Shown in pieces: positions 18,795-34,025 of a stretch of DNA of 50,343 bases. The notes under the pieces are model-generated. The model searched no databases. It worked only from the letters and a program-made list of their open reading frames with translations, and was not told the DNA's origin. Numbering within the stretch: position 1 is the first letter of the stretch; every line of letters starts with the position of its first letter. Made by a program: the position numbers and the translations under genes. Origin of the DNA: Minisyncoccota bacterium (lineage in GTDB: Bacteria > Patescibacteriota > Minisyncoccia > Phycocordibacterales > UBA9973); NCBI GenBank assembly GCA_041665885.1, contig JBAYHY010000004.1:1-50343 (forward strand), written 5' to 3'.

Positions 18795-21700
18795 CTATGG
18801 TGTGGGGGTTGGGGTCGAACCATCAGCGACCGGAACGGGTGCGGCTGGCGCAGGATCGACGCAAGTATTATCCACCAAGGTTTGTGGCGAAGGACACACC
18901 GGAGGAGCTGGAGGAGTATCACCCGTAGCAACACCAGTTGAATCACCACCGAGGGAATCCACACAAACATTATCAACTAAAATCTGCGAAGCGGTACAAG
19001 TCATGGGTTCTGAACCCGTCGAGGAATCGGGAGTTGTGGACACTGTGCTTCCTCCGCCGGAAGCGGCAGTTCCGGCGAGAAGATTATCAAGCTCTGTTCG
19101 GGTGATACACGTCTCACCGGCAAGATCTGTCACACAAAGCTCCTTGGTGTGCACGCGGTTTGCAAAAAAGTCTCCTATTCCATTCGTCGTGTCTGCCATC
19201 CAAGCATCCATCCTATCAAAGAAAGCAACCACAAAAGATTCTGCCGGTGAACCCGGGAGCGGAATGACGGTACCGGTAATACTTTCTAAATTCAAATCTA
19301 AATCTTGTACTGATTTGACGAGAAGCGGAGTAAGTTTGGAATAATCAACCATCCAAGGCGTCTCTCCAGGCGACAATGGATCTATCCCATTATCCCCATT
19401 CGTAGTCACCGCTTCCGGATAAATATTATTTAACTCTTGAGCAATAAAACCGGTCATCCTTTGTTTGCTCGGGTCGCTAACAAAAGCAAAATCTGCAACA
19501 TTAATTTTCATCAAATCTGATAACCCAAGAGCAGTCGGCGCAATGTCTTCTTTAATACGCATATCAGAAGAAGTATTGAAAGCAACTGTCGTGGCAGCAT
19601 TTTGAGAAACACTTCCGATTACCGTGGCATCTGTTCTCTGAAAAGTAATCAATTGAGAAGCGGCCACTCCGGTATTGTTTCCCCCTAGAATTAATAATCC
19701 GTTGTTTTGAGTTGTTCCTCCGAGGGTATTGGCAATTCTAGCTGTCGGCGTACCCGCTGCTGGAGTTCCAGTAACATGAAAAATATTGGAAGGTGACGTC
19801 GCGCCGATGCCGACATTGCCACTTCCTAATATTGTCATCTTCTCCGACAATGTTTGAAGGGTGGTACCCGAGGCGAGCGTCGTTCCGGTAAGGAATGAAA
19901 TACTACTTGCCCCCGTACCCGTTCCAGCACCTGAAGTAAGGATTAAATTACCCCCAACAATATTAGTTCCTCCCGCAACCGTTCCCCCGGCGGCTACAGT
20001 CAAAGCTCTACCCATGGTTCCTGAGGCAGTGTTTTCTATCCAAATCTTTTGTGCAACACCGTTTCCTAAGCTTAAAATATTTGTAGGACTCGTAGTTCCG
20101 ATTCCGACTTTTCCACCACCAGTAGCAATAAGTACGCTACCATAGGCCGCCAATCCTATATTTGCCCCGCCGCTTAAATAAAGATTTCCTCCCGGAGTAC
20201 CGGATGACCCATACGACCCGGCAACGATTTTTAAATCATAAGAATTAGCCATATTATCAACGTCTAGTTTTATGCTTTGCGCGGTAGCAGAATTACTATA
20301 AAGTGCGATATTCCCGGCCACTTCTAGTTTTTCTCCTGGAGTAATTGTCCCAATTCCAACCCTATGATTGGCAGAATCCACAAAAAGAGAGTTGGTGTCT
20401 ACGGTAAGATTATGAATTCCCAAATCTACATTTGACGTTCCGCCAGTGTAAGGAATGTAACCAGAAAGAGAAGGAATGTCGCTCAACAAGGCAAGGGTTC
20501 CGGTGGTGGAAGGCATTGTAATAATATTATTCCCCGTATAACCAACTGCTGGGACTAATCGTAAATATGCCCCCATTGTTCCATTTGTGAAAATCATACC
20601 ATCTGGGGTCACGGACACCTCCCGTCTTGCTCCAATCGATGGCGTGATTCCACTATAAAGACCACTATATCCGAATCCAGAAAAATAGGAATCTGTCCCG
20701 TCGTCAAAACTCGTTGTTGCTCCATAAGAATTCCAACTTGCGATGCTAGTATCATCGTCGTTGCTTGAATTAATGCCAGTTGTATCTATAACAGTATGCT
20801 CTGATGTACCATTTACAGAATCCACTGCATAGACAGTCAATGCAGAAGTGGCGTTTCCTAAAAGGGAAATTTGAGAGGCCAACAAACCACCGTTTGCATT
20901 CGCCGCACCATCGCCGATCTGCAAAACTCCTGCGGCGTTGCGAGAAAGAGAAACGTCATTACTCCCACTTCGTGCATCTACTGTGCTTCTCCAAGTATTT
21001 AACATGCCACTACCATGTTCCAACCCCAAAGTATCAAGCCTTAAAACCACATCGTTTGTTCCGTTTTTTACCTGATATTCTCCGACAGGGGAAGATTTTG
21101 TAGTAAAATTATTTGCTGTCACAACACCACTATTGTCTATATTAAATTTAGTAGCTCCTCCCACCTGTGCGTCAATCAAATACTGCGCTCCACTACCGAC
21201 TGCTGTTTCTGTGCGGTTGATGAGGAGGTCGGTGTTGGCGGCGGTAGAAGCGACTTGATTGTAGGTAGGTTTGATAGCAAGGGTTGCGCCAGTGCCCGCG
21301 GTATTTGTGAAATTCCTAGCAAACAACGCATTGGTATAGGAAGCAGTAGACCCGACAGATTCACCCGAAAAAGCAATTCCAACGTCAGCGTTACTTACAG
21401 AATAACTATACATGGCTAGCCCCCTACCAGCGGCATCTGGCGTAGTGTAACTACTTCCCGAAAAAGAAAACAAATACGGCGACACGGTAGCCGCGCTACC
21501 AAGTCTGAAACCAAGTCCGGTAGTGGTAATGCCCGCATTCGTCACGCTAAACTTACTAACCCCTCCCACTTGTGCGTCTATCAAATTCCCACTTGTTTTT
21601 GCGGTTGGGTTAATTAAGAAATCTGTGAGAGCGGAAGAGTCGGCTTTGGCAAGAGATATTTGTGACGCCAACAAGCTCCCATTGGCATTCGCCGCACCAT

Positions 21701-24700
21701 CACCGATCTGCAAAACTCCGGCAGCATTTCGAGAAAGAGAAGTATCCATGTTTGTATTACCCGCCACGCCCGGCTCCCAACCAATGATAGAGGTATTGCT
21801 GCTTGATAACTTTGCCGCAGGAAGGAATTGACCATTTGAGGAATATCTTGCCTGTACTGTGCCACCTGCGACAAAATCGATAATGTTATTACTACTAGAA
21901 AAGATACCTGTGTTCGTTCCGCCACCACTGAAAGTTATGCTAGGGGCAGAAACTAAACCACTAGATAATAAAAGTCTTCCATTTGCATTCGCTCCGCCGT
22001 CGCCGATTTGGACTATCCCTGCGGCGTTGCGGGAAAGAGATAGGTCGGGAGTGCCATATGCGGAAGTAGTGGACGACCACTTCCGCATATTAGCCGCTGG
22101 CATCTCTTCATCGCCAGCTATGTAACTACTTCCCAAGATGTAGGCCGCCCCGCCAACATTGGAGTATAGGGTGTATCCAGCCACCTTGAAACCTACAGCA
22201 GAGTTGATATATCCATCCTTGTCCACACTAGCCTTCACGGCTCCCGTACTATCCTGCCATTCTTGAAGATTTGCAGTTTGTCCTGCGTAACCCTTAATGA
22301 TTGCACCTTTGTCGGTTATTGCACCAGAGTTAATTTGAAGTTTCGCACCTGGCGTCGTCGTCCCGATGCCGACGGAACCAGAGAAATAAGCACCGCCTGA
22401 AGTGTTGATAGAAGCAAGCTCTGACCCCGATGTCCCAGAAGAAACGTAAAGTGAACTAACTTTTATTTGTCGAAATGTTGTACCTGCTGCATTTGCAAAA
22501 GTGTAAGCATTGCCGCTGTCGTTCACGGCTGGCGTACCATAAAATAGAAGATCTTTAGATGATAAGTAGAATGAGTTGCCTGCTTGAACATTTACTGACG
22601 CATATATATTTCCTGTTACTTCTAATTTGTTACCTGGATTGGTATTCCCTATCCCGACGTTGCCGCTTACAATTAACCCATTAGAAGGAGCTGCGGTACC
22701 TGCATAACTGCCGAAGGCTGCATTGCCTTCTATGTCAAGAGTGTTCACGGCAGTACTTCCTGAAGTTCCGTATCGTAATCCAGTGTCGGTAAGTCTCATC
22801 CATTGCGTAACCGCTGTGCCAGTTATTCTGCCGAAGTATGAAGTACTACCAGACTGCACCATAGAAAATGCATTGTTTGCCGCACTACCAATCACAAAAC
22901 CCGTACCAGACCAGCCAGTTTGGCTTATTTGCCCAAGAGCTGCTGTTGCAGACGGGATACTGGTAAATGTACCGCCAGTGTTGGCTACTTGTATTCCACC
23001 AACTGTAGGACTCGTCGTCCCGATGCCGACACGATGATTCGTCGCATCAACAAAAAGAGAATTAGTATCTACCGTAAGATTATGAATTCCTAAATCTACA
23101 TTTGACGTTCCGCCGGTGTATGGAATGTAACCAGTGGTTAAATCGCTTACTAAAGCTAAGGTTCCTGTAGTGGCTGGCAGGGTTAAAGTTGGAGTGCCGG
23201 CTGCTGCCGCGACTTGGATAATTGCTTTGCCGGAAGTTGCCCCCGCCAAGGAGAGAACTCCAGCTGTTGTTCCGGCGGTGCCAAGGGTTAATAGTTCTCC
23301 GGGAGCAGAGTTACCAATACCGATTTTACCATTCTTGTCTATTACTGTTAGTGCCGTACCTGATGAATTTATCCATTGTTGCAAGTCTGCCGTCTGGGAA
23401 GCAGCGCCGCGAATCTTCAACCCAGTAGTTGCCGCAGTGGCCGCAGTTATGTTTATTGCGTCCGAACCTCCTGACTGAATGTTTGCACCATTGGTTGCAT
23501 AACCAGTGACTACGTATTTACCACTTATCAAAAACCCTGAACCATTAGCGGAAATATAACCGGCATTTGATGTAATTGCATTGAATGCCGTGTTCCAGTT
23601 ACCGGCACCAGCCTTCTCTGAATACCAAATATAACTCCCATCCATATAGTGAGCATCAATCCAATAATTGTCATACCCAGGAAAGTTAAATACTCTGTGC
23701 GTATAGGTATGCTTGGTGGGCACACCCGCATTCCAGGCATAAAATTCTTGATTTATATCTCTTGAATATCCACCATCACCAATAGCCGCGGGGATAGCGG
23801 TAGCACCCAGTGTTAGATTGCCAGCACTTGTTATTTTAGACAACACAGTCCCCGTACTATCCTGCCACTGTTGCAAATCTCCGGTCTGCCCTGCGTAACC
23901 CTTAATGATTGCACCGATGTCTGTTGTGACACCAGAGTTAACTTGAAATTTCGCCCCCGGCGCCGTTGTTCCGATTCCAACGTTGCCACTCGTTGGAAGA
24001 ATTATTATTCCCTGACTTCCAATTGATGCGTTGTAACCAATAAAGCCATATGTACCGCCTCCGCCAGAACCCAAATTCAAAAACGAACCAGCGGCAGCAG
24101 AATCACGAACAACCGCACCGAAGGTAGAACTACCATACACATCTAATTTTGCTCCTGGGCTCGTTGTCCCCACTCCCACTCGATGATTTGTCGCATCCAC
24201 AAAAAGAGAATTGGTATCTACGGTGAGATTGTGAAGTCCTAAATCAACATTTGAAGTTCCACCAGTATAAGGAATGTAGCCAGTAGTTAAATCACTTACC
24301 AAGGCTAAAGTTCCTGTGGTCGTCGGTAAGGTCAAAGTCGGAGTGCCTGCGGCAGCTGCTACTTGGATAATTGCTTTGCCGGAAGTGGCTCCTGCCAAAG
24401 AAAGGACTCCGGCTGTTGTTCCGGCGGTACCGAGGGTTAGTAATTCTCCCGGGGCGGCATTTTTGATACCAATTTTGCCCGTGGGAAATAGCACGTTGCC
24501 AGCAGAAGTATAATTAACATCCTGATAAACAGTGGTGCCGGCCTTATTTCTTATCATAAACCCATTGGCATCAAAACTTCCTATGTTGTTAACAATAAAC
24601 CTTCCGTTGCCAGTCCCCTCGTCTTTTAAATTAACCCAATTACTTGCTCCAAAATAGGCATCTCCGGCTACTTGAAACATAGCACTCGGAGAAACCGTTC

Positions 24701-25292
24701 CGATGCCAACATTGCCGCCCTTAAAATAGATCCCGGCTGTTGATGACGGCCCAATCCATGATTCTGCGAGAGTGGTTAGAGGATTAATGAGGGTAAACGA
24801 GTTTGCCGCGTTGGTATAAACTCCACTCACGACCGTAAGCGCACTATCTGCCACCATCGCAGCCGGAACTGCTCCGAGTTTTTTACGCGACACCATTTCT
24901 CCATCCCACCCAGGTGTCCCAGTACCTCCGATATTTACTCCGAGATAAAGTGTTTGATTAAAATCAACTCCAGTCAAAGGGGTAACCCCTCCGAGGAGAA
25001 CGCTAAAAAGTCCATTCGTCACCTGCACCTTGTCCGTATTTATTCTCGTCTCTGTCCAAATAGCAGTACCACCAGTCGGAACTGTGTACAAAGCAAACTC
25101 CATATTGTAAGTACCGTTGGCGACGGCTACTCCGGCCGAAGTGGTAAGTTTTCCTTGATAATTCATTTGCTTGTTTATCGCAGACTCTACGTCTCCGGTC
25201 GGAAAAAATATTATTACCAAAAAGACAAAAAGCGAAATAATATTTTTTACATTTTTTCTACTTGTTAACTTTTGTGAAAATAATATTCTCAT
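18795..25292 (-). CDS. Giant secreted tail-fibre/tailspike-like adhesin with peptidase S74 intramolecular chaperone
   Basis: Signal peptide; MNYQGKL...GLFSVLLG N-domain; many GIGTTxP repeats; SDMRIKEDI...GFIAQEL...VDYSKLTPLLVKSVQDL. Confidence 0.85.
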   Translation of the reverse strand: MRILFSQKLTSRKNVKNIISLFVFLVIIFFPTGDVESAINKQMNYQGKLTTSAGVAVANGTYNMEFALYTVPTGGTAIWTETRINTDKVQVTNGLFSVLLGGVTPLTGVDFNQTLYLGVNIGGTGTPGWDGEMVSRKKLGAVPAAMVADSALTVVSGVYTNAANSFTLINPLTTLAESWIGPSSTAGIYFKGGNVGIGTVSPSAMFQVAGDAYFGASNWVNLKDEGTGNGRFIVNNIGSFDANGFMIRNKAGTTVYQDVNYTSAGNVLFPTGKIGIKNAAPGELLTLGTAGTTAGVLSLAGATSGKAIIQVAAAAGTPTLTLPTTTGTLALVSDLTTGYIPYTGGTSNVDLGLHNLTVDTNSLFVDATNHRVGVGTTSPGAKLDVYGSSTFGAVVRDSAAAGSFLNLGSGGGGTYGFIGYNASIGSQGIIILPTSGNVGIGTTAPGAKFQVNSGVTTDIGAIIKGYAGQTGDLQQWQDSTGTVLSKITSAGNLTLGATAIPAAIGDGGYSRDINQEFYAWNAGVPTKHTYTHRVFNFPGYDNYWIDAHYMDGSYIWYSEKAGAGNWNTAFNAITSNAGYISANGSGFLISGKYVVTGYATNGANIQSGGSDAINITAATAATTGLKIRGAASQTADLQQWINSSGTALTVIDKNGKIGIGNSAPGELLTLGTAGTTAGVLSLAGATSGKAIIQVAAAAGTPTLTLPATTGTLALVSDLTTGYIPYTGGTSNVDLGIHNLTVDTNSLFVDATNHRVGIGTTSPTVGGIQVANTGGTFTSIPSATAALGQISQTGWSGTGFVIGSAANNAFSMVQSGSTSYFGRITGTAVTQWMRLTDTGLRYGTSGSTAVNTLDIEGNAAFGSYAGTAAPSNGLIVSGNVGIGNTNPGNKLEVTGNIYASVNVQAGNSFYLSSKDLLFYGTPAVNDSGNAYTFANAAGTTFRQIKVSSLYVSSGTSGSELASINTSGGAYFSGSVGIGTTTPGAKLQINSGAITDKGAIIKGYAGQTANLQEWQDSTGAVKASVDKDGYINSAVGFKVAGYTLYSNVGGAAYILGSSYIAGDEEMPAANMRKWSSTTSAYGTPDLSLSRNAAGIVQIGDGGANANGRLLLSSGLVSAPSITFSGGGTNTGIFSSSNNIIDFVAGGTVQARYSSNGQFLPAAKLSSSNTSIIGWEPGVAGNTNMDTSLSRNAAGVLQIGDGAANANGSLLASQISLAKADSSALTDFLINPTAKTSGNLIDAQVGGVSKFSVTNAGITTTGLGFRLGSAATVSPYLFSFSGSSYTTPDAAGRGLAMYSYSVSNADVGIAFSGESVGSTASYTNALFARNFTNTAGTGATLAIKPTYNQVASTAANTDLLINRTETAVGSGAQYLIDAQVGGATKFNIDNSGVVTANNFTTKSSPVGEYQVKNGTNDVVLRLDTLGLEHGSGMLNTWRSTVDARSGSNDVSLSRNAAGVLQIGDGAANANGGLLASQISLLGNATSALTVYAVDSVNGTSEHTVIDTTGINSSNDDDTSIASWNSYGATTSFDDGTDSYFSGFGYSGLYSGITPSIGARREVSVTPDGMIFTNGTMGAYLRLVPAVGYTGNNIITMPSTTGTLALLSDIPSLSGYIPYTGGTSNVDLGIHNLTVDTNSLFVDSANHRVGIGTITPGEKLEVAGNIALYSNSATAQSIKLDVDNMANSYDLKIVAGSYGSSGTPGGNLYLSGGANIGLAAYGSVLIATGGGKVGIGTTSPTNILSLGNGVAQKIWIENTASGTMGRALTVAAGGTVAGGTNIVGGNLILTSGAGTGTGASSISFLTGTTLASGTTLQTLSEKMTILGSGNVGIGATSPSNIFHVTGTPAAGTPTARIANTLGGTTQNNGLLILGGNNTGVAASQLITFQRTDATVIGSVSQNAATTVAFNTSSDMRIKEDIAPTALGLSDLMKINVADFAFVSDPSKQRMTGFIAQELNNIYPEAVTTNGDNGIDPLSPGETPWMVDYSKLTPLLVKSVQDLDLNLESITGTVIPLPGSPAESFVVAFFDRMDAWMADTTNGIGDFFANRVHTKELCVTDLAGETCITRTELDNLLAGTAASGGGSTVSTTPDSSTGSEPMTCTASQILVDNVCVDSLGGDSTGVATGDTPPAPPVCPSPQTLVDNTCVDPAPAAPVPVADGSTPTPTP

Positions 25293-25295
25293 TTT

Positions 25296-25655
25296 CTAGT
25301 TTATTGTCTCCACCTCGGAGGAAAGAGTTTTTTTACCTTCCCCTAAATCTGTTTTATTGTTCTTTCCATAAAAATAAATACTAAAAACAAGAATGCCCAG
25401 AAAAAGTATCCCGGAAATAATAAAAATATTTTGAGTTCTTCTTTGGGATAAGAAATCCCCAATGGCAAACTTATCGTGACGGATTTTTTGCTTAAAAATG
25501 TAATTCTTTATTTCCTCTTCGGTGGTAAACCAATTCCCTCCAATTTTCTCCCCTTTCATCTCTCCTTTGCGAATCAGGGCGCTCAAATAATCTGAATGGT
25601 ATCCAGAAATCTTTGATGCTTGGCTTAATGATATGACTTTTTTTAGATTTTCCAT
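25296..25655 (-). CDS. HTH_17/excisionase-like DNA-binding domain fused to a C-terminal TM helix
   Basis: ISLSQASKISGYHSDYLSALIRKGEMKGEKIGGNWFT; TM IFIISGILFLGILVFSIYF. Confidence 0.75.
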   Translation of the reverse strand: MENLKKVISLSQASKISGYHSDYLSALIRKGEMKGEKIGGNWFTTEEEIKNYIFKQKIRHDKFAIGDFLSQRRTQNIFIISGILFLGILVFSIYFYGKNNKTDLGEGKKTLSSEVETIN

Positions 25656-25807: not shown

Positions 25808-27094
25808 TTATATTTGTTGAGTTTTTTTCTTGCGTTTCAGCAAAATACGCAATAAAAATAAGGCAAATATCGTTGCAATTATTAAAATTAGATAGAGGTA
25901 TGCGTTGCTTGAAGAATCGCTTTCTCCTGGGACTAAATTCTCCTTAACCAACAGCGCCCCCTCGCCTATTATAGTTGAGATATTATCCTTGTATCGATGA
26001 ATTTTTATATGATAGATGCCGGCATTTGGGAGTGAAGGAATTACACTTTGATAACGCTTGCTGTCTGCATTATATGAAAATAAATATTGCCCAATAACCA
26101 CCCCTTCCCCATCCACAACTTCCATCCAATCGTCAGGAAGAGTTTTTATATTCGTATCGATGATTGTGCTTTTGTTATTTTCAATCGTGATTACTTTTGT
26201 GCTCGTAAGTATTTCCGCTTGTTGATTGTATTGATATACAAAAAAGTTTTCTGGGATAAAAACTTCTGGGGGAATCTCTGTTCCCGGGGCCGGAGGCAAA
26301 GAAGAATAAGCAGATTGAGAAATTCCTGTGCCTGTTGAAAAATTTCCATTTATGTCTCTCGAAAATAATACATAAAAATATTTTTTTCCTTCTGTCACAT
26401 TTTTATCCAAAAATTTTTCTCCATTTCCTTCATAAATTAATTTCCCCAAGAATGGGTCTCCCCTGAAACGATCTTCATGTCTCATGATACGAATATAAGA
26501 AAAATTATTGTCCAGCGGATTCTGCCAGGTGATAGTGATACCGGAAACATCAGCAGACGTTTTCACATTTAGCGGACCCGAAGGGAGGGTGGTATCTTTT
26601 AAAAATTTTGTAAAAAAATAAGTCGATGGATGTATGCTATTTTTTCCATTAATGTCCTGACTTTCAATCGTAAAATAATACATTGTGCCAGCCTTTAGAT
26701 TCAATATTTCCATCCTGTGTTCTCTGGCAAAAACAACACTACGAAGGATGCCCTCTTTCGCTTCCATGGTCACTCCCCATTTTATGGTACTTATGGTGCT
26801 GACAGAAGTGTCCCAGCTGATAATTGCATTAACAAAATTTGCCTGAATAGACAAATTATAAATAGGGATATTCTCTCTAATTTTACTCCCGCTACTGGTG
26901 GAGGGTGGCGGGACCACGATTGCACAATCTACGGGACAAGAAACAACGGTCTCGCCGACTTCACATATGCCGTTATTATTACAACCATCAACTCCTAGAT
27001 TAACCTTAATTCCATCTGCCCCAGTATAAGCAAAAGCAGCATTATGCTGCAACAAAAATAAGACAATTATTAAAAAAACTAGTCGCTTTCCCAT
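25808..27094 (-). CDS. Secreted fibronectin type III-like protein with Cys-rich N-terminus and C-terminal TM anchor
   Basis: CNNNGICEVGETVVSCPVDC; LKAGTMYYFTI and ITITWQNP FN3-like segments; C-terminal TM plus basic tail. Confidence 0.7.
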   Translation of the reverse strand: MGKRLVFLIIVLFLLQHNAAFAYTGADGIKVNLGVDGCNNNGICEVGETVVSCPVDCAIVVPPPSTSSGSKIRENIPIYNLSIQANFVNAIISWDTSVSTISTIKWGVTMEAKEGILRSVVFAREHRMEILNLKAGTMYYFTIESQDINGKNSIHPSTYFFTKFLKDTTLPSGPLNVKTSADVSGITITWQNPLDNNFSYIRIMRHEDRFRGDPFLGKLIYEGNGEKFLDKNVTEGKKYFYVLFSRDINGNFSTGTGISQSAYSSLPPAPGTEIPPEVFIPENFFVYQYNQQAEILTSTKVITIENNKSTIIDTNIKTLPDDWMEVVDGEGVVIGQYLFSYNADSKRYQSVIPSLPNAGIYHIKIHRYKDNISTIIGEGALLVKENLVPGESDSSSNAYLYLILIIATIFALFLLRILLKRKKKTQQI

Positions 27095-27103
27095 ATAAAA
27101 TTA

Positions 27104-27877
27104 TTATAACACCAAAGCAGTGACGACGATCGAAGCAGAATAACTGCCAGAAGTTTGGATATGCGCCGAACCTGACTCAGCGCGAAAACGCACATTTACC
27201 GCGCTGCCCGTAGGCTGATTGCTGCCCCCCTTGCCGGCAATTGTCTTGGGCGAAGTGGAAAGCCCATCCCAACATTTACCACTAACCTCTCCCGTGCCAG
27301 TATTGCATATCAAACCATTGTCTTTAAAACGTGCATTTGTATCGACACCCTCTGGCGAAAAACCAAAAGCTGAAGTGGAAGAAAGAATAGAAAAATTATA
27401 ATCTGGGTCTGTCCCGGCCGGGGTATAATCAGAAAATGAATCATCAGCAGATCGAAGAGCTGGAATAGTTGTCGTTTTAATATCCATAACATAACCGGCA
27501 GTGTTATCTGTCACAATTTGCCAAGACATTGTCCCTTCTGTCGTTTCCCCATTTATCCCTCCGATATGAGTCAGGGCTAAGTCTGCGGGGGTAGAAATAG
27601 ATATATAGCTTTCCTGCATCTGCCAAAAACCCGCATGCAGATAATAATTGTTGCTATTTGAATCCCCCGTACCCACTTCCCCCAAAGTATCGTCAAGACT
27701 ATAGGTAGTACTCGTAGAAGCTTCTCCCCCGACATTGATACTGTCAGAGGTAATACGATAGGTATTACTTTGCATCGATTCCGCAAAAATCGTGTATAGA
27801 GGTATAAATAATAAAGAAATAAAGAAAAAAACCATAGCACTTCTTTTCTTAAGAAAAGATGTAATATTTTTTTTCAT
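27104..27877 (-). CDS. Secreted two-domain protein; C-terminal domain paralogous to the WxL/fimbrial-like subunits
   Basis: Signal peptide; W.IVTDNTAGY...PAL....DSFSDYT...FGFS; ends GSYSASIVVTAL. Confidence 0.6.
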   Translation of the reverse strand: MKKNITSFLKKRSAMVFFFISLLFIPLYTIFAESMQSNTYRITSDSINVGGEASTSTTYSLDDTLGEVGTGDSNSNNYYLHAGFWQMQESYISISTPADLALTHIGGINGETTEGTMSWQIVTDNTAGYVMDIKTTTIPALRSADDSFSDYTPAGTDPDYNFSILSSTSAFGFSPEGVDTNARFKDNGLICNTGTGEVSGKCWDGLSTSPKTIAGKGGSNQPTGSAVNVRFRAESGSAHIQTSGSYSASIVVTALVL

Positions 27878-27884
27878 TTCGTGA

Positions 27885-28862
27885 TTATTTTTTTCTTAAT
27901 TCAAAACGAGTCAAAATATAATAGAAGGACACAACCAGAAGCAGAATTACTGCAAACACGGGAACAAGTATTTTCCATGGAATTATCCAAAAGGACAACT
28001 TGGCATCAGCATATTCATTGTTATAACCTTTGTACAAAGAAAGATTTGCGGTGTAGCGCCCCAAACTAAAACCATTGGTCCAGTTTACCTCTCTGTATCT
28101 TATGGAATCTGGAAGAACAAAATACGCATCGACGGGTAACGTGCCGACGGTCTGACCAAATATGTTTTTTATAGTGATAGTTCCATAGGGCACAAGGTGA
28201 ACATTCCCCGTATTTTTGTATGCGATTTCAAACCCAGCCGGCCGGCTACTATAAAACATTTGAGTCGGCCCTATTGTCTTAAAATTTTCAATATTTCCTT
28301 CTTCTTTCCCCTCTCCGTTAATTCTTAACAAGAAAAGAGACCCGATTCTGGAAATAATACGAGTTTTGCCTTCAACCTCGCTTGTCCCGTCAGTCCCCAG
28401 CTTGTCAGGGTCATTTGATACAATTAACGCGCCGTAATAACCTCTAGGCTCAGCATCCTTGGGCACCGATACAGTGACCGGAATAGTGATTTTCTCTCCG
28501 AACTCTAAACTAAATTCTGTAATTTCAGGAATGATAAAATCCTTAAGTGAATAGGGACTGTTTGCATCCCCGAGAAGCACGACTGGCTGCTTCGCATCAT
28601 TTGAACCGATGAAATCCTCCGTGCTTAATTTGAATTTAACCGTCTTGTTTACTCTGTTGGTTATCGAAATGTTCTTAACCATGTTTTCTCCAGGATTTAG
28701 AAAAACTTCTGTCTTTCCTGGCTCTACCACGAAGTCATTTTGCGCAGTTACGTCAACATTGATCTTCGTATATGCTTCTGCCTGTAAGGGCAATGAAGAA
28801 ATACCTACAAATACAGAAATGATTGTTACACTATATATTATTTTTTTTATTGAAAAAATCAT
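27885..28862 (-). CDS. DUF916/DUF3324-like (WxL-interacting-protein-like) membrane-anchored protein
   Basis: Signal peptide, two predicted beta-sandwiches (ISITNR...ITIPVTVSVP..GYYGALIV; YKNTGNVHLVP.G.I.I), IIPW before C-terminal TM. Confidence 0.65.
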   Translation of the reverse strand: MIFSIKKIIYSVTIISVFVGISSLPLQAEAYTKINVDVTAQNDFVVEPGKTEVFLNPGENMVKNISITNRVNKTVKFKLSTEDFIGSNDAKQPVVLLGDANSPYSLKDFIIPEITEFSLEFGEKITIPVTVSVPKDAEPRGYYGALIVSNDPDKLGTDGTSEVEGKTRIISRIGSLFLLRINGEGKEEGNIENFKTIGPTQMFYSSRPAGFEIAYKNTGNVHLVPYGTITIKNIFGQTVGTLPVDAYFVLPDSIRYREVNWTNGFSLGRYTANLSLYKGYNNEYADAKLSFWIIPWKILVPVFAVILLLVVSFYYILTRFELRKK

Positions 28863-28878
28863 TTTTAAATTTTATTTT

Positions 28879-29508
28879 TTATAATGTAACAGCCGTACCA
28901 GTAATGGTGGCAGTATATGTCCCAGCGGCCGCAAAGACAGCATTTTGTTGAGCGGCAAAACAAATCGTCGTGGTAATACCGGCGACTGGGGTGGTGGTAG
29001 CCCTTGTGGCAATTATTTTGTCTGACGTGGAAAATCCAACATATTTTTGAGCGGCAGCGGGTACACCAGCTGCACCGCAAGATGCAGATGTCCCCCATGT
29101 GCCAGTGGCCGTGTCAGTACCATAAGCCGAATATCCAAATTCTTTTGCTCCGCTACCGACACTCCATAACTCAGGAGTCCCTCCGGCTGTCTCCGTATAA
29201 TCAGCAAATGAATTACCACCGCTTACCAATGCCGGGGAAGCAGAAGCCTTCACCGCCAAAGAATACCCGGCTGCTCCGTTAGTTATTACCAGCCAAGAAG
29301 AACTGCCGATAGATCCATTGGCAGACACACCGATATGCGGAGCCATGGTGACGGCGGCCCCATCTGAAATAGTAATACCAGAATCGACATCCAAGGTCAC
29401 GACCACTTGGTCTGTGACAGCGAAGGCATATTCCGTCAAAGAATAAAATTGAACAAAAAGAAAAAGAATCAGAAAACTTATTACAAATTTCTTATTTATT
29501 TTTTTCAT
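28879..29508 (-). CDS. Secreted WxL/fimbrial-subunit-like protein, paralog A
   Basis: Signal peptide, DQVVVTLDV first strand, C-terminal GTYTATITGTAVTL. Confidence 0.6.
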   Translation of the reverse strand: MKKINKKFVISFLILFLFVQFYSLTEYAFAVTDQVVVTLDVDSGITISDGAAVTMAPHIGVSANGSIGSSSWLVITNGAAGYSLAVKASASPALVSGGNSFADYTETAGGTPELWSVGSGAKEFGYSAYGTDTATGTWGTSASCGAAGVPAAAQKYVGFSTSDKIIATRATTTPVAGITTTICFAAQQNAVFAAAGTYTATITGTAVTL

Positions 29509-29579
29509 AAAAACTAAATCAAATGTTAATTTCTTTTATATACACGCACTCTCCTCTTCAAAAAACGAAACCGTATAAA

Positions 29580-30206
29580 TTATAATGTAACAGCCGTACC
29601 AGTAATAGTGGCAGTATATGTCCCAGCGGCCGCAAAAACCGTGTCCTGTTCAGCGGCAAAACAGATTGTGGTGGTTATGCCCGTGGTAGGAGTGACAGTC
29701 GCCCTTGTGGCAATTATTTTATCCGTTGGGGTCGCTGCAAATCCTACATATTTTTGAGTTCCGGTCGGAGCACCCGCTGAGCCACAAGAAGTCCCCGTCC
29801 CCCAAGTGGCTGTACTTGTGTCTGTCCCATATGCTGAATATCCAAATTCCTTGCTCGCCGCAGGCACACTCCACACTTCAGGAGTTCCGGGTGTCGCTTC
29901 GGTATAATTAGCAAAAGAATCCGTGGCACTCTTCAACGCCGGATCAGTCGAATCATGTACCGATAAACTATAACCACTTGCTCCGTTCGTTATTACCGTC
30001 CAAGTAGAACTACCGATAGAACCATTCGCAGTGATGCTAATGTGTGGGGCCATGGTGACGGCGGCCCCATCTGAAATAGTAATACCAGAATCGACATCCA
30101 GGGTCACGACCACTTGGTCTGTGACACCGAAGGCATATTCCGTCAAAGAATAAAATTGAACAAAAAGAAAAAGAATCAGAAAACTTATTACAAATTTCTT
30201 ATTCAT
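29580..30206 (-). CDS. Secreted WxL/fimbrial-subunit-like protein, paralog B
   Basis: As paralog A; start reassigned to ATG 30206 by alignment. Confidence 0.6.
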   Translation of the reverse strand: MNKKFVISFLILFLFVQFYSLTEYAFGVTDQVVVTLDVDSGITISDGAAVTMAPHISITANGSIGSSTWTVITNGASGYSLSVHDSTDPALKSATDSFANYTEATPGTPEVWSVPAASKEFGYSAYGTDTSTATWGTGTSCGSAGAPTGTQKYVGFAATPTDKIIATRATVTPTTGITTTICFAAEQDTVFAAAGTYTATITGTAVTL

Positions 30207-30312: not shown

Positions 30313-31203
30313 TTATATTTTTTCCCCGACTAAAGCTTTAATTCTTTCTTCCACGGGTGGATGAGTGGCAAAAAGTCCGGTAATTTTTTTACCTAGTTTT
30401 GAACCCTTCGGGTCGGCGATGTATAGATGCGCTATCACACTCGATTGATGCGCCATGGGTTGACTATATTCAGAAATTTTTCGAAGCGCGTTCGCCAGTC
30501 CTTCCGGATAACGGGTAAGTAGTGCCCCGGATGCATCTGCTAGAAATTCACGTTTTCTGGAAATCGCTAATTGAATCAAAATTGCAAAAAGTGGCGCAAG
30601 AATCGAAAGAATAATTCCAACAAGCATAAACAAACCACCTCCCCCTTCACCGTCTCTCCTTCTGCCAAAAAATAAATTTCTCCTGAAGACATCTGCGGCA
30701 ATGGTGACGAAACCGACAAGGACTACGACGACAGTAGAGAGCAACATATCTCTGTTGCCCACGTGTGAAAGTTCATGCGCGATTACTCCTTCCAGTTCGG
30801 TCTTGTCCAAAATGGCAAGTAGGCCGGTCGTGGCGCAAACGACGGCATGCTTTTTATCTCTACCCGTAGCAAAAGCGTTCGGGGCCCTGTCCTCTACCAC
30901 GTACACTCTCGGCATCGGCAAACCAGCCGTGATAGAAAGATTCTCCACGCTCGTGTATAAATCAAAATATTCTTCCCTTTTGGCTTCTTTGGCACCGGCA
31001 AGCTTGAGCACGATTTTATCTGAAAACCAGTAAGAAAAAACGTTCATCAAAATACTGAAAATAACAAAAAAATAAAGAATATCGGGGCTACCGTAATAAA
31101 TACTGAAAAACCAGCCGATTCCAATGACTATCACAAAAAATGCTGACATTAAAACCCAGGTTTTCGTAACATTTTTTGTTTGTTCGGTATATAACGTAGC
31201 CAT
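30313..31203 (-). CDS. htpX: Zinc metalloprotease HtpX (M48)
   Basis: PNAFATG, GVIAHELSHV, SRKREFLADA, FATHPP. Confidence 0.95.
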   Translation of the reverse strand: MATLYTEQTKNVTKTWVLMSAFFVIVIGIGWFFSIYYGSPDILYFFVIFSILMNVFSYWFSDKIVLKLAGAKEAKREEYFDLYTSVENLSITAGLPMPRVYVVEDRAPNAFATGRDKKHAVVCATTGLLAILDKTELEGVIAHELSHVGNRDMLLSTVVVVLVGFVTIAADVFRRNLFFGRRRDGEGGGGLFMLVGIILSILAPLFAILIQLAISRKREFLADASGALLTRYPEGLANALRKISEYSQPMAHQSSVIAHLYIADPKGSKLGKKITGLFATHPPVEERIKALVGEKI

Positions 31204-31700
31204 TATTCTATGGTAATGGGAATTAAAATGCTTTTATCGTTCTCTGGAAGCCCAGAAGCGTTATCGTTGTGAACTTCAATATAAGCTGGCCCCTTTGGCA
31301 GTGTCGAAAAATCAATGGTGGTCTTGAAGGAAACGGGCCCCGCGGTCATCCATTCACTCGTAGCATTGCCATTGCCAGCCTGAAGTAAATTTTTGTCTTT
31401 ACCCAAAACATTTATTAAAATATTTCCTTCAAAAAAATAACCCCCTTTGACAGAACCGGTGATTTCTACCACGCCTCTGACTTTTTGATTTGGCAGAACG
31501 GAAAGAAAAACTAAGTCGTCTTTATTCCCGAAAACTTGTAGCTCATTTTCGTTCGACGTTTTTCCCTCCTGATTTTGACTCCAAAAAGGAAAATACGTTT
31601 CTTTGTTCTCGAACATCACCAAAAGGGCGACTATCATCAGAATAATCAGAATAAATAATAGCGCAGTATTTAATTTCGAACCAAAAAAATTATTTTGCAT
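31203..31700 (-). CDS. Membrane-anchored Gmad2-like Ig-fold protein
   Basis: ITGSVKGGYFFEG, WMTAGPVSF, DNASGLPEND; start reassigned to ATG 31700. Confidence 0.7.
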   Translation of the reverse strand: MQNNFFGSKLNTALLFILIILMIVALLVMFENKETYFPFWSQNQEGKTSNENELQVFGNKDDLVFLSVLPNQKVRGVVEITGSVKGGYFFEGNILINVLGKDKNLLQAGNGNATSEWMTAGPVSFKTTIDFSTLPKGPAYIEVHNDNASGLPENDKSILIPITIE

Positions 31701-31740
31701 ACCTATATCGTACACAAAAATATGCTAAAAATCAATTCAA

Positions 31741-33450
31741 TTATAGATCTCCTTCCTCAATGCTCTCGAGTCTTTTCGCAAAATACTTTTCTGCTTCCTC
31801 CACATCCCTGGACAATGTATTCATCGTTTCTTTGTCATTCTCTGTAAGCTTGTCTTTTATTTCATCATTTTTAAATATTTTTATACTTTGTTTTATATCC
31901 TCATTTAATATCTTGAATATCTTATGGGCTTCACTTTCTGTTTGATCAAGATCTGTCAAAAGTTTTCTTCTCATTTTCTTCAACCGATGATAGAAATGAT
32001 ATGCGAGGTACAACAAGATGACCAAGAGCAACAGAACCGGGATAGCGACAGACAATATCTCAATTGCCAGCAAACTTAATTTGATAAACGCGGGTTTGTT
32101 TATGACAACGAAGTATTTATAAGAAGGTGGGCTAATCACCTCCGCCGATCTTACCGCCTCAGCATAAAAGGACACTAAGCCAGCATTGTTCGTAAAATCA
32201 CTCGTGAAAGTAAAACTGCCGTCTTCCAATGATCTGGTAATATAACTTTTTTCATCGAGATTTTCTTCTTTTAACCAAATACGAACATCCGTATTTGGAT
32301 ACGAGGTCCCCATAATTTCTATTTTTTCTCCTTTTTCAATTGATTCAGAATATTTGATAATTTGTGGAGACTTGTTCTCCGGAAAAACAGTTGTTAAAAC
32401 TTTTTCGCTTAAGTTGCCCGCCCTATCGTAAGCAATAATACTTAGATCATGTCTACCGGGCGCCACTGGTGGTAGTGTTATTTTTGTTAAACCATCACTT
32501 CCCCCCACCTCCGAGATCACCCCACCCTCAAGCAAAATTTTATATTTATTTATCCCAGAGGTGGCGTCCGTACTTTCAACCTGAAGCAAAACGAGGTCGT
32601 CCCCGGAGGCAGAACTGGTAATACTCGTAATAACTGGAGCCGTAGTATCGGTCTTAAATTTAAAGTGGGTGGTCTTACTCCAGCCCGCACCATTTTTAAA
32701 CCTTATATGAAGATAGTGAATTCCGTCACCTAAATCCTTAAGTGTTTTTTCTTTAATGGGTGGAGAATATGTAATGGAAGGAATTGAAGTTGGAGAGGAG
32801 TTTAGTAATGTTTGCACGGTAGAAACACCCGATGACAAATCCCAAGAAAAAGTAATCTTATTGAGTGAATACCAATCTTCATAAGACGCTATTTCCGAAG
32901 AAACGACAACGGGAGACGTCGGAAGTTTTTCTGACTCCATCGCTTGTTCTATTGTTTCAGCCCCTTGATATGAAATAATGTTTACTGCAATTCCCCTTTT
33001 AGAAGAGGCGACGTTTGTCCCCAGTCCATCGTTTGCGTAAATGCTTGCGGAATTAAATAAAATTTGAGCATTTCCAGCCTTTTTTGCTTTAAACAACACA
33101 CTGATTACTTTTCCACTTGTTCCCCTAAACCCCGGATTTGGAACACCCCCATTGAAAGAAATAGTTCCATTGATATTCGAAAACGTCGGTTGCTCAACCC
33201 ACATAGAAAACACCGAACCACTGCTACTTATAGAATCAACACTCAATAAATCAACCGGAAAAGAAATTAAACCTTCAATACTATTTATATATATTCCGGC
33301 GGTGTCTGTATTCACAGTCACGGTGAACGTTTGGTTTTCTGTTACAGTTTGGTTATTACTAGTACAAAAAATATCCGCCGCATTCACGGTTCTAAAAACA
33401 AACAGCGAAACTAGTATAAAAACAATTTTTAAATAAAAATTATTCTTCAT
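31741..33450 (-). CDS. Cohesin-domain protein with Ig-like domains, TM anchor and cytoplasmic coiled coil
   Basis: INSIEGLISFP..LL.V.SI...SVF.MWVEQP......ISF.GG.P cohesin-like pattern. Confidence 0.75.
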   Translation of the reverse strand: MKNNFYLKIVFILVSLFVFRTVNAADIFCTSNNQTVTENQTFTVTVNTDTAGIYINSIEGLISFPVDLLSVDSISSSGSVFSMWVEQPTFSNINGTISFNGGVPNPGFRGTSGKVISVLFKAKKAGNAQILFNSASIYANDGLGTNVASSKRGIAVNIISYQGAETIEQAMESEKLPTSPVVVSSEIASYEDWYSLNKITFSWDLSSGVSTVQTLLNSSPTSIPSITYSPPIKEKTLKDLGDGIHYLHIRFKNGAGWSKTTHFKFKTDTTAPVITSITSSASGDDLVLLQVESTDATSGINKYKILLEGGVISEVGGSDGLTKITLPPVAPGRHDLSIIAYDRAGNLSEKVLTTVFPENKSPQIIKYSESIEKGEKIEIMGTSYPNTDVRIWLKEENLDEKSYITRSLEDGSFTFTSDFTNNAGLVSFYAEAVRSAEVISPPSYKYFVVINKPAFIKLSLLAIEILSVAIPVLLLLVILLYLAYHFYHRLKKMRRKLLTDLDQTESEAHKIFKILNEDIKQSIKIFKNDEIKDKLTENDKETMNTLSRDVEEAEKYFAKRLESIEEGDL

Positions 33451-34012: not shown

Positions 34013-34025
34013 ATATTATTCAAAA

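What the first reader, a model, noticed from the sequence alone, without database searches (positions are those of the whole stretch)
25808..30206. WxL/fimbrial-like cluster: three paralogous subunits, a DUF916-like partner and an FN3 anchor
Two small secreted paralogs and a two-domain third share W.(V/I).TN..GY.L...PAL...F.(D/N)YT and end in G.Y.A.I..TA. The mature N-terminus DQVVVTLDV alternates hydrophobic residues like a donor strand. A DUF916/DUF3324-like protein lies between them, as in Firmicute WxL (csc) clusters (established layout). An usher-less, sortase-less polymerising fibre in a monoderm CPR cell is inference.
Basis: partly seen in the sequence, partly recalled or inferred. Interest (0 to 1): 0.65.

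Follow-up and report, generated by a model that had tools for sequence, protein, structure and literature searches.

The report
Compact chaperone-built pilus operon in CPR
This five-gene cluster in an ultra-small Nomurabacteria (CPR) genome most likely builds a thin surface fibre whose subunits lock together strand-into-groove, with help from a membrane-anchored chaperone. It is a stripped-down, so far unannotated relative of two pilus systems first described in 2026 preprints.

Summary
On the minus strand of 25808-30206 lie two 79%-identical secreted paralogs, a 325-aa two-domain protein with a C-terminal membrane helix, a 257-aa protein whose C-terminal 170 residues are paralogous to them, and a 428-aa membrane-anchored protein with a marginal FN3 match.

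- **Chaperone:** it matches the chaperone of a canonical pam operon (BLASTP 4e-26). Its best fold match is Enterococcus WxLIP (DUF916/DUF3324; 1.6e-12), followed by chaperone-usher chaperones.
- **Pilins:** their profile aligns to the donated linker strand plus C-terminal domain of Pam pilins (hhalign 94.5%).
- **Division of labour:** the pilins carry a near-invariant V-x-V-x-L-x-V N-terminal strand. The anchor starts with I-x-V-x-L-x-V. The tip lacks the strand.
- **Conservation:** the gene order is kept in about 50 of 64 related loci.

It differs from published Pam operons: class Paceibacteria, single-domain pilins, and no hit to NCBI's Pam pilin or PamR models.

A profile of the CPR chaperones hits WxLIP by sequence (1.8e-11). 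This links the Pam and WxL pili, which neither preprint mentions. Polymerisation itself was not tested.

The parts
29580..30206 (-). Pilin A (208 aa): signal peptide, N-terminal donor strand, and a single beta-sandwich domain with a conserved Cys141-Cys182 pair
   Evidence: ORF. AF2 mean pLDDT is 93.4. The best Foldseek hits are chaperone-usher pilins, TasA and Csu, but all are weak (E>=0.03). hhalign of the family against two-domain Pam pilins gives prob 94.5%, E=7.5e-8.
30093..30119 (-). Putative donor strand of pilin A (D30-V38, DQVVVTLDV)
   Evidence: D30, V32, V34, L36 and V38 are invariant in 52 homologues. The alternating hydrophobicity is quantified. The strand aligns to the donated linker strand of Pam pilins.
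28879..29508 (-). Pilin B (209 aa), paralog of A
   Evidence: 79% identical to A. DNA identity is 97-100% over about 150 nt of the 5' coding region and 93-97% over the last ~60 nt, against 60-83% in the middle.
29386..29412 (-). Putative donor strand of pilin B (D33-V41)
   Evidence: Identical in sequence to that of pilin A.
27885..28862 (-). Membrane-anchored two-Ig-domain chaperone (325 aa), PamC/D-like and WxLIP-like
   Evidence: BLASTP E=4e-26 to the chaperone of a canonical pam operon. AF2 shows two beta domains plus helix 296-324. Foldseek gives WxLIP at 1.6e-12 and CfaA, CsuC, FimC and Caf1M at 1e-8 to 1e-6. The family profile hits the WxLIP1 sequence at 1.8e-11. There is one copy in the genome.
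28320..28352 (-). Candidate chaperone donor (G1-like) strand S171-I181 (SRIGSLFLLRI), following a disordered loop at 156-167
   Evidence: S171, R172, I173, G174, S175 and F177 are invariant. AF2 predicts a strand at 171-181 after a low-pLDDT loop. It aligns with the WxLIP1 hairpin. The assignment as a donor strand is inference.
27891..27977 (-). C-terminal transmembrane helix of the chaperone (residues 296-324)
   Evidence: AF2 helix and hydropathy scan.
27104..27877 (-). Tip-type subunit (257 aa), PamT-like: three S-x-N-Y-x-L repeats followed by a pilin-type C-terminal domain, with no donor strand
   Evidence: NCBIfam NF058579 PamT gives E=1.3e-13 and 51 bits (cut-off 240), covering model positions 3-129 only. 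hhalign of the family against canonical PamT gives prob 98.1%, E=6.6e-14. The C-terminal domain is paralogous to the pilins.
25808..27094 (-). Membrane anchor / terminator (428 aa): signal peptide, donor-strand-like N-terminus, 4-Cys knot, FN3-type stalk, C-terminal TM helix and basic tail
   Evidence: Pfam fn3 at 4.4e-5. TM at 395-421. The N-terminus is conserved in 46 homologues. LPxTG is not conserved (4 of 46). NCBIfam PamR gives no match.
26990..27010 (-). Donor-strand-like segment of the anchor (I29-V35, IKVNLGV)
   Evidence: I-x-V-x-L-x-V has hydrophobic fractions of 0.85, 0.98, 0.98 and 0.98 across 46 homologues. This is the same V-x-L-x-V core as in the pilins.
25296..25655 (-). 119-aa HTH plus TM protein, found next to the cluster in related genomes
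   Evidence: Pfam HTH_17 is weak. It is found directly downstream of the anchor in 36 of 64 related loci. Its role is unknown.
18795..25292 (-). 2165-aa tail-fibre-like surface protein, found next to the cluster in related genomes
   Evidence: Peptidase_S74 at residues 1909-1963, E=7.9e-9. Homologues of its N-terminus lie downstream in 42 of 64 loci. The Pam preprint reports a tail-fibre-like neighbour of pam operons.

Best explanation
The cluster is a compact Pam-type pilus operon of a Candidatus Nomurabacteria (class Paceibacteria, CPR) cell. [quoted passage not shown]

**Proposed pathway**
1. All five proteins are exported by Sec. This is read from their N-terminal signal sequences.
2. The 325-aa protein stays in the membrane through its C-terminal helix. 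Outside the cell it acts like a PapD/FimC or ElrE chaperone, completing the unfinished Ig-like fold of each new subunit with one of its own strands. This is inferred from homology and fold.
3. The 257-aa PamT-like protein has the acceptor domain but no donor strand, so it starts the fibre as its distal tip.
4. Pilins A and B each insert their N-terminal strand (D-x-V-x-V-T-L-x-V) into the groove of the previous subunit, next to its C-terminal G-x-Y-x-A-x-I strand. This extends the fibre.
5. The 428-aa protein has the same kind of strand (I-x-V-x-L-x-V) at its mature N-terminus but no acceptor domain. It caps the last pilin and ties the fibre to the membrane through a Cys-knot, an FN3-type stalk and a TM helix.

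**Shown here:** the gene anatomy, the homologies, the predicted folds, the motif conservation and the synteny.

**Inferred:** strand insertion, subunit order and filament formation.

**Function (inference):** probably reach and attachment to a host cell.
For: **Chaperone**
- BLASTP E=4e-26 (28% identity over 270 aa) to the chaperone gene of a canonical pam operon. That operon's PamT (295.5 bits against a cut-off of 240) and PamR (355.7 bits against 300) pass NCBI's equivalog cut-offs.
- Foldseek top hits are WxLIP (1.6e-12), then CfaA, CsuC, FimC and Caf1M.
- The CPR chaperone profile hits the WxLIP1 sequence at 1.8e-11.
- It has a C-terminal TM helix.

**Pilins**
- hhalign against 32 two-domain Pam pilins gives prob 94.5%, E=7.5e-8. 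The pilin N-terminal strand lies over the Pam linker strand, which cryo-EM shows is the donated strand (paper).
- The strand is invariant and alternating.
- Foldseek ranks chaperone-usher pilins first, although weakly.

**Tip**
- NCBIfam PamT E=1.3e-13 and hhalign prob 98.1% to canonical PamT.
- Its homology to the pilins begins only after the donor strand.

**Anchor**
- Its conserved N-terminus I-x-V-x-L-x-V mimics the pilin strand.
- It has a TM helix and basic tail, and no conserved LPxTG.

**Genome and synteny**
- No usher is present in the genome.
- The order pilin-chaperone-tip-anchor is kept in about 50 of 64 loci.

**Experimental precedent**
- Pam pili: PMC13278184.
- Elr pili: 10.64898/2026.10.17.759780.
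Against: - No multimer model or experiment was possible, so strand insertion is untested.
- The AF2 monomer of pilin A is confident (pLDDT 93). DSSP assigns no strand to residues 24-41, so it is unknown whether the groove is open.
- Fold matches of the pilin to known pilins are weak: best E=0.03, TM 0.33-0.49, none at or below 1e-3.
- NCBI's Pam pilin C-domain and PamR models find nothing in this genome even at E<=10.
- The PamT model matches only its N-terminal half, at 51 of the 240 bits required.
- The pilins are single-domain, unlike PamA, PamB and PamE.
- The anchor resembles PamR in architecture only.
Confidence: 0.8

Rival explanations
1. A non-polymerising surface complex. The membrane-anchored WxLIP-like protein simply holds small secreted beta-sandwich proteins at the cell surface as monomeric adhesins or wall-binding proteins. 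This was the older model for WxL clusters, before they were shown to build pili.
For: The AF2 monomer is confident and could be a complete fold. Fold similarity of the pilin to polymerising pilins is weak. The 2023 WxLIP paper (PMC10599100; title and start of the abstract seen) describes DUF916/DUF3324 proteins as binding WxL and linking bacterial and host surfaces.
Against: - This model does not explain the invariant alternating N-terminal strand on the pilins.
- It does not explain the same strand on the anchor or its absence from the tip.
- It does not explain the profile alignment of that strand to the donated Pam linker strand.
- Both related systems have since been shown to polymerise.
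Confidence: 0.1
2. A chaperone-independent self-assembling fibre of the TasA or archaeal thread/cannula type. In this reading the 325-aa protein has another role, for example wall or host binding.
For: The TasA fibre (8aur_A, E=0.035) and the cannulae fibre (9h8b, E=0.28) are among the weak Foldseek hits of the pilin. Those fibres also use donor strands.
Against: - The 325-aa gene is always adjacent to the pilins.
- It is homologous to the Pam chaperone and to WxLIP, the DUF916/DUF3324 family to which ElrE belongs. The Elr preprint reports that ElrE is needed for ElrD polymers.
- Its fold matches chaperone-usher chaperones at 1e-8 to 1e-6.
Confidence: 0.06
3. A true member of the Firmicute WxL/csc (Elr) system, acquired by horizontal transfer.
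For: The layout resembles csc/elr clusters, and the chaperone's best fold and sequence hit in the PDB is WxLIP.
Against: - There is no WxL domain.
- There is no DUF3324 match, and DUF916 is sub-threshold.
- There is no LPxTG anchor.
- The chaperone family is present in 203 of 401 sampled Patescibacteria genomes, so it is native to the phylum.
Confidence: 0.03

Closest known systems
Pam pilus of Candidatus Mycosynbacter amalyticus (Saccharimonadia): PamA/B/E pilins, PamC/D chaperones, PamT tip, PamR anchor. Troman et al., bioRxiv 2026 (PMC13278184). NCBIfam NF058578, NF058579, NF058581.
   Same: - A CPR host and Sec-exported parts.
- A PapD-like chaperone with a C-terminal TM helix. Our protein has clear sequence homology (E=4e-26) to the chaperone gene of a reference operon that NCBI's PamT and PamR models identify as a canonical pam operon.
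- A PamT-like tip.
- A pilin C-terminal domain with the G-x-Y...A-T C-terminal strand and a paired-Cys motif.
- A TM-anchored terminator with an N-terminal strand.
- A tail-fibre-like giant gene next door.
- No usher.
   Different: - The class is Paceibacteria. The preprint reports mainly Saccharimonadia and Microgenomatia and never mentions Paceibacteria.
- The pilins are single-domain (~180 aa mature): a donor strand at the extreme N-terminus plus the C-terminal domain, with no nine-strand N-terminal domain.
- There is one chaperone instead of two.
- The gene order is pilin-chaperone-tip-anchor, against tip-pilins-chaperone-anchor.
- The anchor has a Cys-knot plus an FN3-type stalk and does not match the PamR model.
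- The pilins do not match the Pam_pilin_C model.
Elr / WxL pilus of Enterococcus faecalis (ElrD/ElrC pilins, ElrE DUF916/DUF3324 chaperone, ElrA tip, ElrB LPxTG base; Sleutel et al., bioRxiv Oct 2026), and E. faecium WxLIP structures 9i1y and 9i25.
   Same: - A monoderm cell.
- A membrane-anchored two-domain chaperone that is the best fold hit (1.6e-12) and a sequence-profile hit (1.8e-11) for ours.
- Pilins built as an N-terminal donor strand plus one incomplete Ig-like domain.
- A tip without a donor strand and a terminator with one.
- No usher.
   Different: - There is no WxL domain in the subunits.
- There is no DUF3324 HMM match.
- The base is a TM protein, not a sortase-linked LPxTG protein.
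- The donor-strand consensus differs: V-x-V-x-L-x-V here, against [S/T]-x-[G/A]-x-[V/I]-x-F in Elr.
- The host phylum is Patescibacteria, whereas the preprint states that the system is confined to Bacillota.
Classical and archaic chaperone-usher pili of Gram-negative bacteria (Fim, Pap, Csu, CFA/I, Caf1).
   Same: - The chaperone fold is the same (Foldseek 2.6e-8 to 1e-6 against CfaA, CsuC, FimC and Caf1M).
- Pilin fold hits rank these pilins first.
- The logic is the same: an N-terminal extension, an acceptor groove and a C-terminal F strand.
   Different: - There is no usher and no outer membrane.
- The chaperone is tethered to the membrane rather than soluble.
- There is no sequence similarity to the PapD family.
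- The fibre is anchored by a TM protein.
TasA fibres, archaeal threads and cannulae (chaperone-free donor-strand fibres).
   Same: Donor-strand-linked beta-sandwich subunits on cells without an outer membrane. There are weak fold hits.
   Different: Those systems have no dedicated chaperone, tip or anchor genes. Here all three are conserved next to the pilins in related genomes.

Membership tests
CPR Pam pilus system | PamT tip protein (NCBIfam NF058579 equivalog, cut-off 240 bits) | tested here: not met
   51 bits, E=1.3e-13, model positions 3-129 only. Remote homology is nevertheless supported by hhalign: prob 98.1%, E=6.6e-14 against nine canonical PamT sequences.
CPR Pam pilus system | [quoted passage not shown] | tested here: not met
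   No match at E<=1 for the proteins or at E<=10 for the whole genome. Profile-profile comparison does link them: prob 94.5%, E=7.5e-8 over 159 columns, including the linker strand.
CPR Pam pilus system | Two-domain pilins (nine-strand N-terminal beta-sandwich, linker strand, C-terminal domain) | tested here: not met
   The mature pilins are ~180 aa and align only to the linker plus C-terminal domain. AF2 shows one beta domain.
CPR Pam pilus system | PapD/FimC-like chaperone with a C-terminal transmembrane helix (PamC/PamD) | tested here: met
   BLASTP E=4e-26 to the chaperone of a canonical pam operon. Our family HMM hits chaperone ORFs in most of the loci fetched around PamT-model matches, at E from 1e-14 to 1e-43.
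CPR Pam pilus system | PamR anchor (NF058578, cut-off 300 bits): RbmA-like tandem FnIII, N-terminal strand, C-terminal TM | tested here: inconclusive
   There is no HMM match and BLASTP is not significant. The architecture matches, however: a conserved N-terminal strand, one marginal fn3 match and a C-terminal TM.
CPR Pam pilus system | Filament held together by donor-strand exchange | not testable with these tools
The support is indirect.
Firmicute WxL / Elr (csc) pilus | WxL domain in the subunits (Pfam PF13731) | tested here: not met
   No Pfam hit at E<=1. No genome-wide match at E<=10. The pilin profile finds no PDB sequence.
Firmicute WxL / Elr (csc) pilus | DUF916 / WxLIP_PGBD domain (PF06030, cut-off 27.3 bits) | tested here: inconclusive
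   Sub-threshold at 13.2 bits, E=0.036, but this is the only match in the genome and it lies inside the chaperone gene. In the reverse direction, the CPR profile hits EfmWxLIP1 at E=1.8e-11 over its N-terminal domain. Foldseek gives 1.6e-12.
Firmicute WxL / Elr (csc) pilus | DUF3324 / WxLIP_HBD domain (PF11797) | tested here: not met
   No match at E<=10. The structural alignment to WxLIP spans ~275 columns, which covers both domains.
Firmicute WxL / Elr (csc) pilus | LPxTG base subunit anchored by sortase | tested here: not met
   There is no sorting signal in the five proteins. LPxTG-like strings occur in only 4 of 46 anchor homologues. The genome's one sortase is on another contig.
Chaperone-usher pili | Outer-membrane usher (PF00577) | tested here: not met
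   No match in the genome.
Chaperone-usher pili | PapD-family periplasmic chaperone by sequence | tested here: not met
   There are no Pfam or PDB sequence hits to PapD-like chaperones. The similarity is in fold only.

The most novel reading that the evidence does not exclude
The CPR Pam pili and the Bacillota WxL/Elr pili are two branches of one ancient pilus superfamily of monoderm bacteria, built without an usher by chaperone-guided donor-strand exchange. They share a homologous membrane-tethered chaperone (DUF916-type N-terminal domain). In this reading, the Paceibacteria form seen here is the minimal version and bridges the two architectures, because its pilins are just an N-terminal donor strand plus one incomplete Ig domain, as in ElrD. 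Such systems would then be present in roughly half of Patescibacteria, far more than reported, and not confined to Bacillota.
Probability: 0.55. Interest if true: 0.72.

Novelty: new variant of a known kind. Interest (0 to 1): 0.58.

Why it matters
**Host attachment in CPR bacteria.** These bacteria live attached to other cells, and how they reach and hold their hosts is largely unknown. The Pam pilus was discovered only in 2026, in one Saccharimonadia species.

**A simpler, overlooked version.** This locus shows a simpler version of that machine in a different and very large CPR class. The homologues that carry a source name in the searches here are all labelled "hypothetical protein", and NCBI's Pam pilin and PamR models do not detect these genes.

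**How widespread it is.** The chaperone at its core occurs in about half of the sampled Patescibacteria genomes.

**A link between two discoveries.** The same chaperone is a sequence-detectable relative of the Enterococcus WxLIP/ElrE chaperone. This ties together two discoveries that were published independently. It also argues that pilus assembly by donor-strand exchange without an usher is an old and widespread solution in single-membrane bacteria.

**A practical model.** The small single-domain pilins should be easy to use for biochemical reconstitution.

Tried and rejected
**Searches that found nothing**
- Pfam and NCBIfam on the five proteins gave no DUF916, DUF3324, WxL, PapD, Pam_pilin_C or PamR hit at E<=1. 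The only hits were fn3 (marginal) and PamT (partial).
- phmmer of pilin A, the chaperone and the tip against PDB sequences gave nothing meaningful.
- The pilin family profile against PDB sequences gave nothing.
- Pairwise BLASTP was not significant for pilin against a Pam pilin (E=0.089) or for anchor against PamR (E=0.11). Only profile-profile comparison links the pilins.
- The second and third domains of the anchor were scanned separately against Pfam. No FN3 was detected.

**Weak or uninformative results**
- Foldseek of the pilin model gave only weak pilin-like hits, and no WxL chain appeared in the top 50.
- The consensus promoter and terminator scan did not exceed shuffled expectation and was not used.

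**Discarded analyses**
- A first hhalign against a "PamT" set was discarded because my filter had kept only two sequences, one of them a close relative of the query. It was redone with nine canonical PamT sequences.
- I checked whether homogenised paralog ends are general. They are seen only in this genome, its closest relative and, partly, one other, so the pattern is lineage-specific.

**Readings rejected**
- Sortase-dependent pilus.
- Usher-dependent pilus.
- Horizontal acquisition from Firmicutes.

Full report
**1. What is there**

Five co-directional minus-strand genes occupy exactly the stated interval:
- pilin-like A, 29580-30206 (208 aa);
- pilin-like B, 28879-29508 (209 aa);
- a 325-aa protein, 27885-28862;
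- a 257-aa protein, 27104-27877;
- a 428-aa protein, 25808-27094.

A and B are 79% identical. The 257-aa protein shares 29% identity with A over its last ~170 residues.

All five begin with a hydrophobic signal-type helix. The 325-aa and 428-aa proteins also end in a transmembrane helix followed by basic residues.

The segment DQVVVTLDV follows the predicted signal-peptide cleavage site (AFG/AFA).

**2. Which organism**

Homologues of the pilin and of the 325-aa protein come from metagenome-assembled Candidatus Nomurabacteria, Paceibacterota and Patescibacteria genomes. Every source name given for them is "hypothetical protein". The genome is 643 kb in 16 contigs and 97% complete.

**3. The key lead**

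NCBIfam matched the 257-aa protein to NF058579, "CPR-type pilus protein PamT". The match was E=1.3e-13 but only 51 bits against a cut-off of 240, and it covered model positions 3-129 only.

That led to Troman et al. (PMC13278184). Cryo-EM of Candidatus Mycosynbacter amalyticus filaments showed the following:
- PamA and PamB are two-domain pilins joined by donor-strand exchange. A linker strand is donated into the truncated Ig-like C-terminal domain of the neighbouring subunit.
- The operon also encodes PamC and PamD, which are FimC/PapD-like chaperones with a C-terminal TM helix.
- PamT is a tip protein with the C-terminal domain but no linker strand.
- PamR is RbmA-like, with FnIII domains, an N-terminal strand and a C-terminal TM helix. 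It is proposed to be the terminator and anchor.
- A tail-fibre-like gene is a consistent neighbour.

**4. Direct comparison with a canonical pam operon**

Scanning 401 Patescibacteria genomes with the PamT model found eight above the cut-off. I fetched one such operon (L014). NCBI's models call its PamT (295.5 bits), its PamR (355.7 bits) and the C-domains of its pilins.

- **Chaperone.** Our 325-aa protein matches the chaperone gene of that operon at BLASTP E=4e-26 (28% identity over 270 aa). An HMM of our chaperone family hits a chaperone-like ORF in most of the loci I fetched around PamT-model matches.
- **Tip.** Our tip matches PamT in the N-terminal S-x-N-Y-x-L repeat region (E=2e-7). At family level, hhalign gives prob 98.1%, E=6.6e-14.
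- **Pilins.** Pairwise BLAST finds nothing significant, and NCBI's Pam_pilin_C model finds nothing. Profile-profile comparison with 32 two-domain Pam pilins gives prob 94.5%, E=7.5e-8 over 159 columns (first run 88.7%). That alignment places our N-terminal strand on the Pam linker strand and the rest on the C-terminal domain. Our pilins are therefore "linker plus C-terminal domain" with no N-terminal domain.
- **Anchor.** It has no detectable sequence relation to PamR.

**5. Folds**

- **Pilin A.** The AF2 model is confident (pLDDT 93.4): a single beta domain with a C-terminal strand at 201-207. DSSP assigns no strand to residues 24-41. Foldseek against the PDB ranks these first: the PapG pilin domain in complex with PapD, a subunit chain of the FimD-tip complex (9fy9_F), the Csu pilus, PapE and the TasA fibre. 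All are weak (best E=0.03, TM 0.33-0.49).
- **The 325-aa protein.** The AF2 model (pLDDT 79.6) has two beta domains, a disordered loop at 156-167 and helix 296-324. Its Foldseek top hits are E. faecium WxLIP (9i1y_B at 1.6e-12; 9i25_C, "bound to long WxL", at 5e-12). Next come the chaperone-usher chaperones CfaA, CsuC, FimC, Caf1M and DraB at 1e-8 to 1e-6.

**6. The WxL connection**

- A profile of 78 diverse CPR homologues hits the EfmWxLIP1 sequence at E=1.8e-11 over its N-terminal domain.
- Pfam PF06030 (WxLIP_PGBD) has a single match in the whole genome. It lies inside this gene but is sub-threshold, at 13.2 bits against 27.3.
- PF11797 (DUF3324) and PF13731 (WxL) find nothing.

Sleutel et al. 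(10.64898/2026.10.17.759780) showed three things about the E. faecalis elr WxL operon:
[quoted passage not shown] - An LPxTG protein linked to the wall by sortase forms the base.

They state that the system is confined to Bacillota. Neither preprint mentions the other system.

**7. Division of labour read from the sequences**

- **Pilins.** In 64 pilin homologues the mature N-terminus reads D-x-V-(V)-V-T-L-x-V-x-x-G-I-x-I. Hydrophobic occupancy at the alternating positions is 0.95-1.0.
- **Anchor.** In 46 anchor homologues the mature N-terminus reads (D/N)-(G/S)-I-x-V-x-L-x-V-x-G-C, with occupancy 0.85-0.98. A 4-Cys motif, C-N-N-N-G-I-C-E-x-G-E-x4-C-P-x-D-C, follows it.
- **Tip.** Its homology to the pilins starts only after that strand.

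This gives three classes: groove only (tip), strand plus groove (pilins), and strand only plus a membrane anchor (terminator). This is the logic proposed for PamT, PamA/B/E and PamR, and for ElrA, ElrD and ElrB.

Also consistent with this model:
- No conserved LPxTG exists in the anchors.
- The genome has no usher.
- The genome has one sortase, on another contig.

**8. Conservation and spread**

- The order pilin(1-3)-chaperone-tip-anchor is kept in about 50 of 64 related loci.
- The 119-aa HTH-TM gene lies downstream in 36 of the 64 loci. The N-terminus of the 2165-aa Peptidase_S74 protein lies downstream in 42 of them. Many loci are truncated, so these are lower bounds.
- The genome has one chaperone copy.
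- The chaperone profile finds matches in 203 of 401 sampled Patescibacteria genomes and 163 of 319 genera. There are 5469 cluster representatives at E<=1e-3 in the 1.84-billion-protein library.

**9. Verdict**

This is a compact Pam-type pilus operon that works by chaperone-guided donor-strand exchange, in a Paceibacteria genome. It is a new variant of a kind described in 2026, for four reasons:
- its pilins are single-domain;
- it has one chaperone;
- its anchor is different;
- the current Pam models miss it.

The homology between the chaperones of the Pam and WxL systems is, as far as the two preprints show, unreported.

The central mechanistic step, strand insertion and polymerisation, remains inferred. 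It needs multimer modelling or reconstitution.

Noticed in passing
window 28879-30206 (-): The two pilin genes are 97-100% identical at the DNA level over about 150 nt of the 5' coding region (signal peptide, donor strand, first strand). They are 93-97% identical over the last ~60 nt (C-terminal strand) but only 60-83% in between. This looks like gene conversion keeping the interacting elements interchangeable while the exposed middle diverges. The pattern recurs in the closest relative (L036) but not generally.
   Followed up: partly
window 25296-25655 (-) and 18795-25292 (-): A 119-aa HTH_17-like protein with a TM helix and a 2165-aa Peptidase_S74 (tail-fibre-like) protein follow the anchor. 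Both are found in the same position in related genomes (36 and 42 of 64 loci). Whether the giant protein is displayed on the pilus or works with it is unknown.
   Followed up: partly
window 26925-26981 (-), anchor residues 38-57: A conserved 4-Cys motif, C-N-N-N-G-I-C-E-x-G-E-x4-C-P-x-D-C, directly follows the anchor's donor-like strand in almost all 46 homologues. It has no Pfam match.
   Followed up: no
table; for example G197:C1:112548-113036 and five other places in G197: Several Patescibacteria genomes encode 800-1100-aa proteins whose C-terminus matches the C-terminal half of the PamT model. They may be modular tip adhesins carrying a Pam-type attachment domain, analogous to the WxL tip adhesins.
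   Followed up: no
L013 and L018 (179-aa ORFs); L011 and L017 (185-aa ORFs): Saccharimonadia-type pam loci also carry short ~180-aa pilin-like ORFs ending in ...AGNYT(T/S)x(I/V)VYTAVP. The 179-aa ORFs are weakly hit by our pilin HMM (E=6e-4). Short pilins may therefore exist beside the two-domain ones.
   Followed up: no
loci L041, L064, L079, L086, L098: Contigs carrying this CPR operon are labelled Burkholderiales, Bdellovibrionales, Saccharofermentanales, "uncultured archaeon" or Gammaproteobacteria in their records. These are probably binning or labelling errors in the MAGs.
   Followed up: no
G000 contig C6:13054-13473 (-): The genome encodes one sortase (Pfam PF04203, 79.7 bits), far from the pilus cluster. 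Its substrates were not sought.
   Followed up: no
window 30313-31203, 31203-31715, 31741-35720: Upstream neighbours are an HtpX-type M48 protease, a Gmad2 Ig-like protein, a Big_13/TM protein and a dockerin protein. They are not found next to the pilus genes in related genomes.
   Followed up: partly
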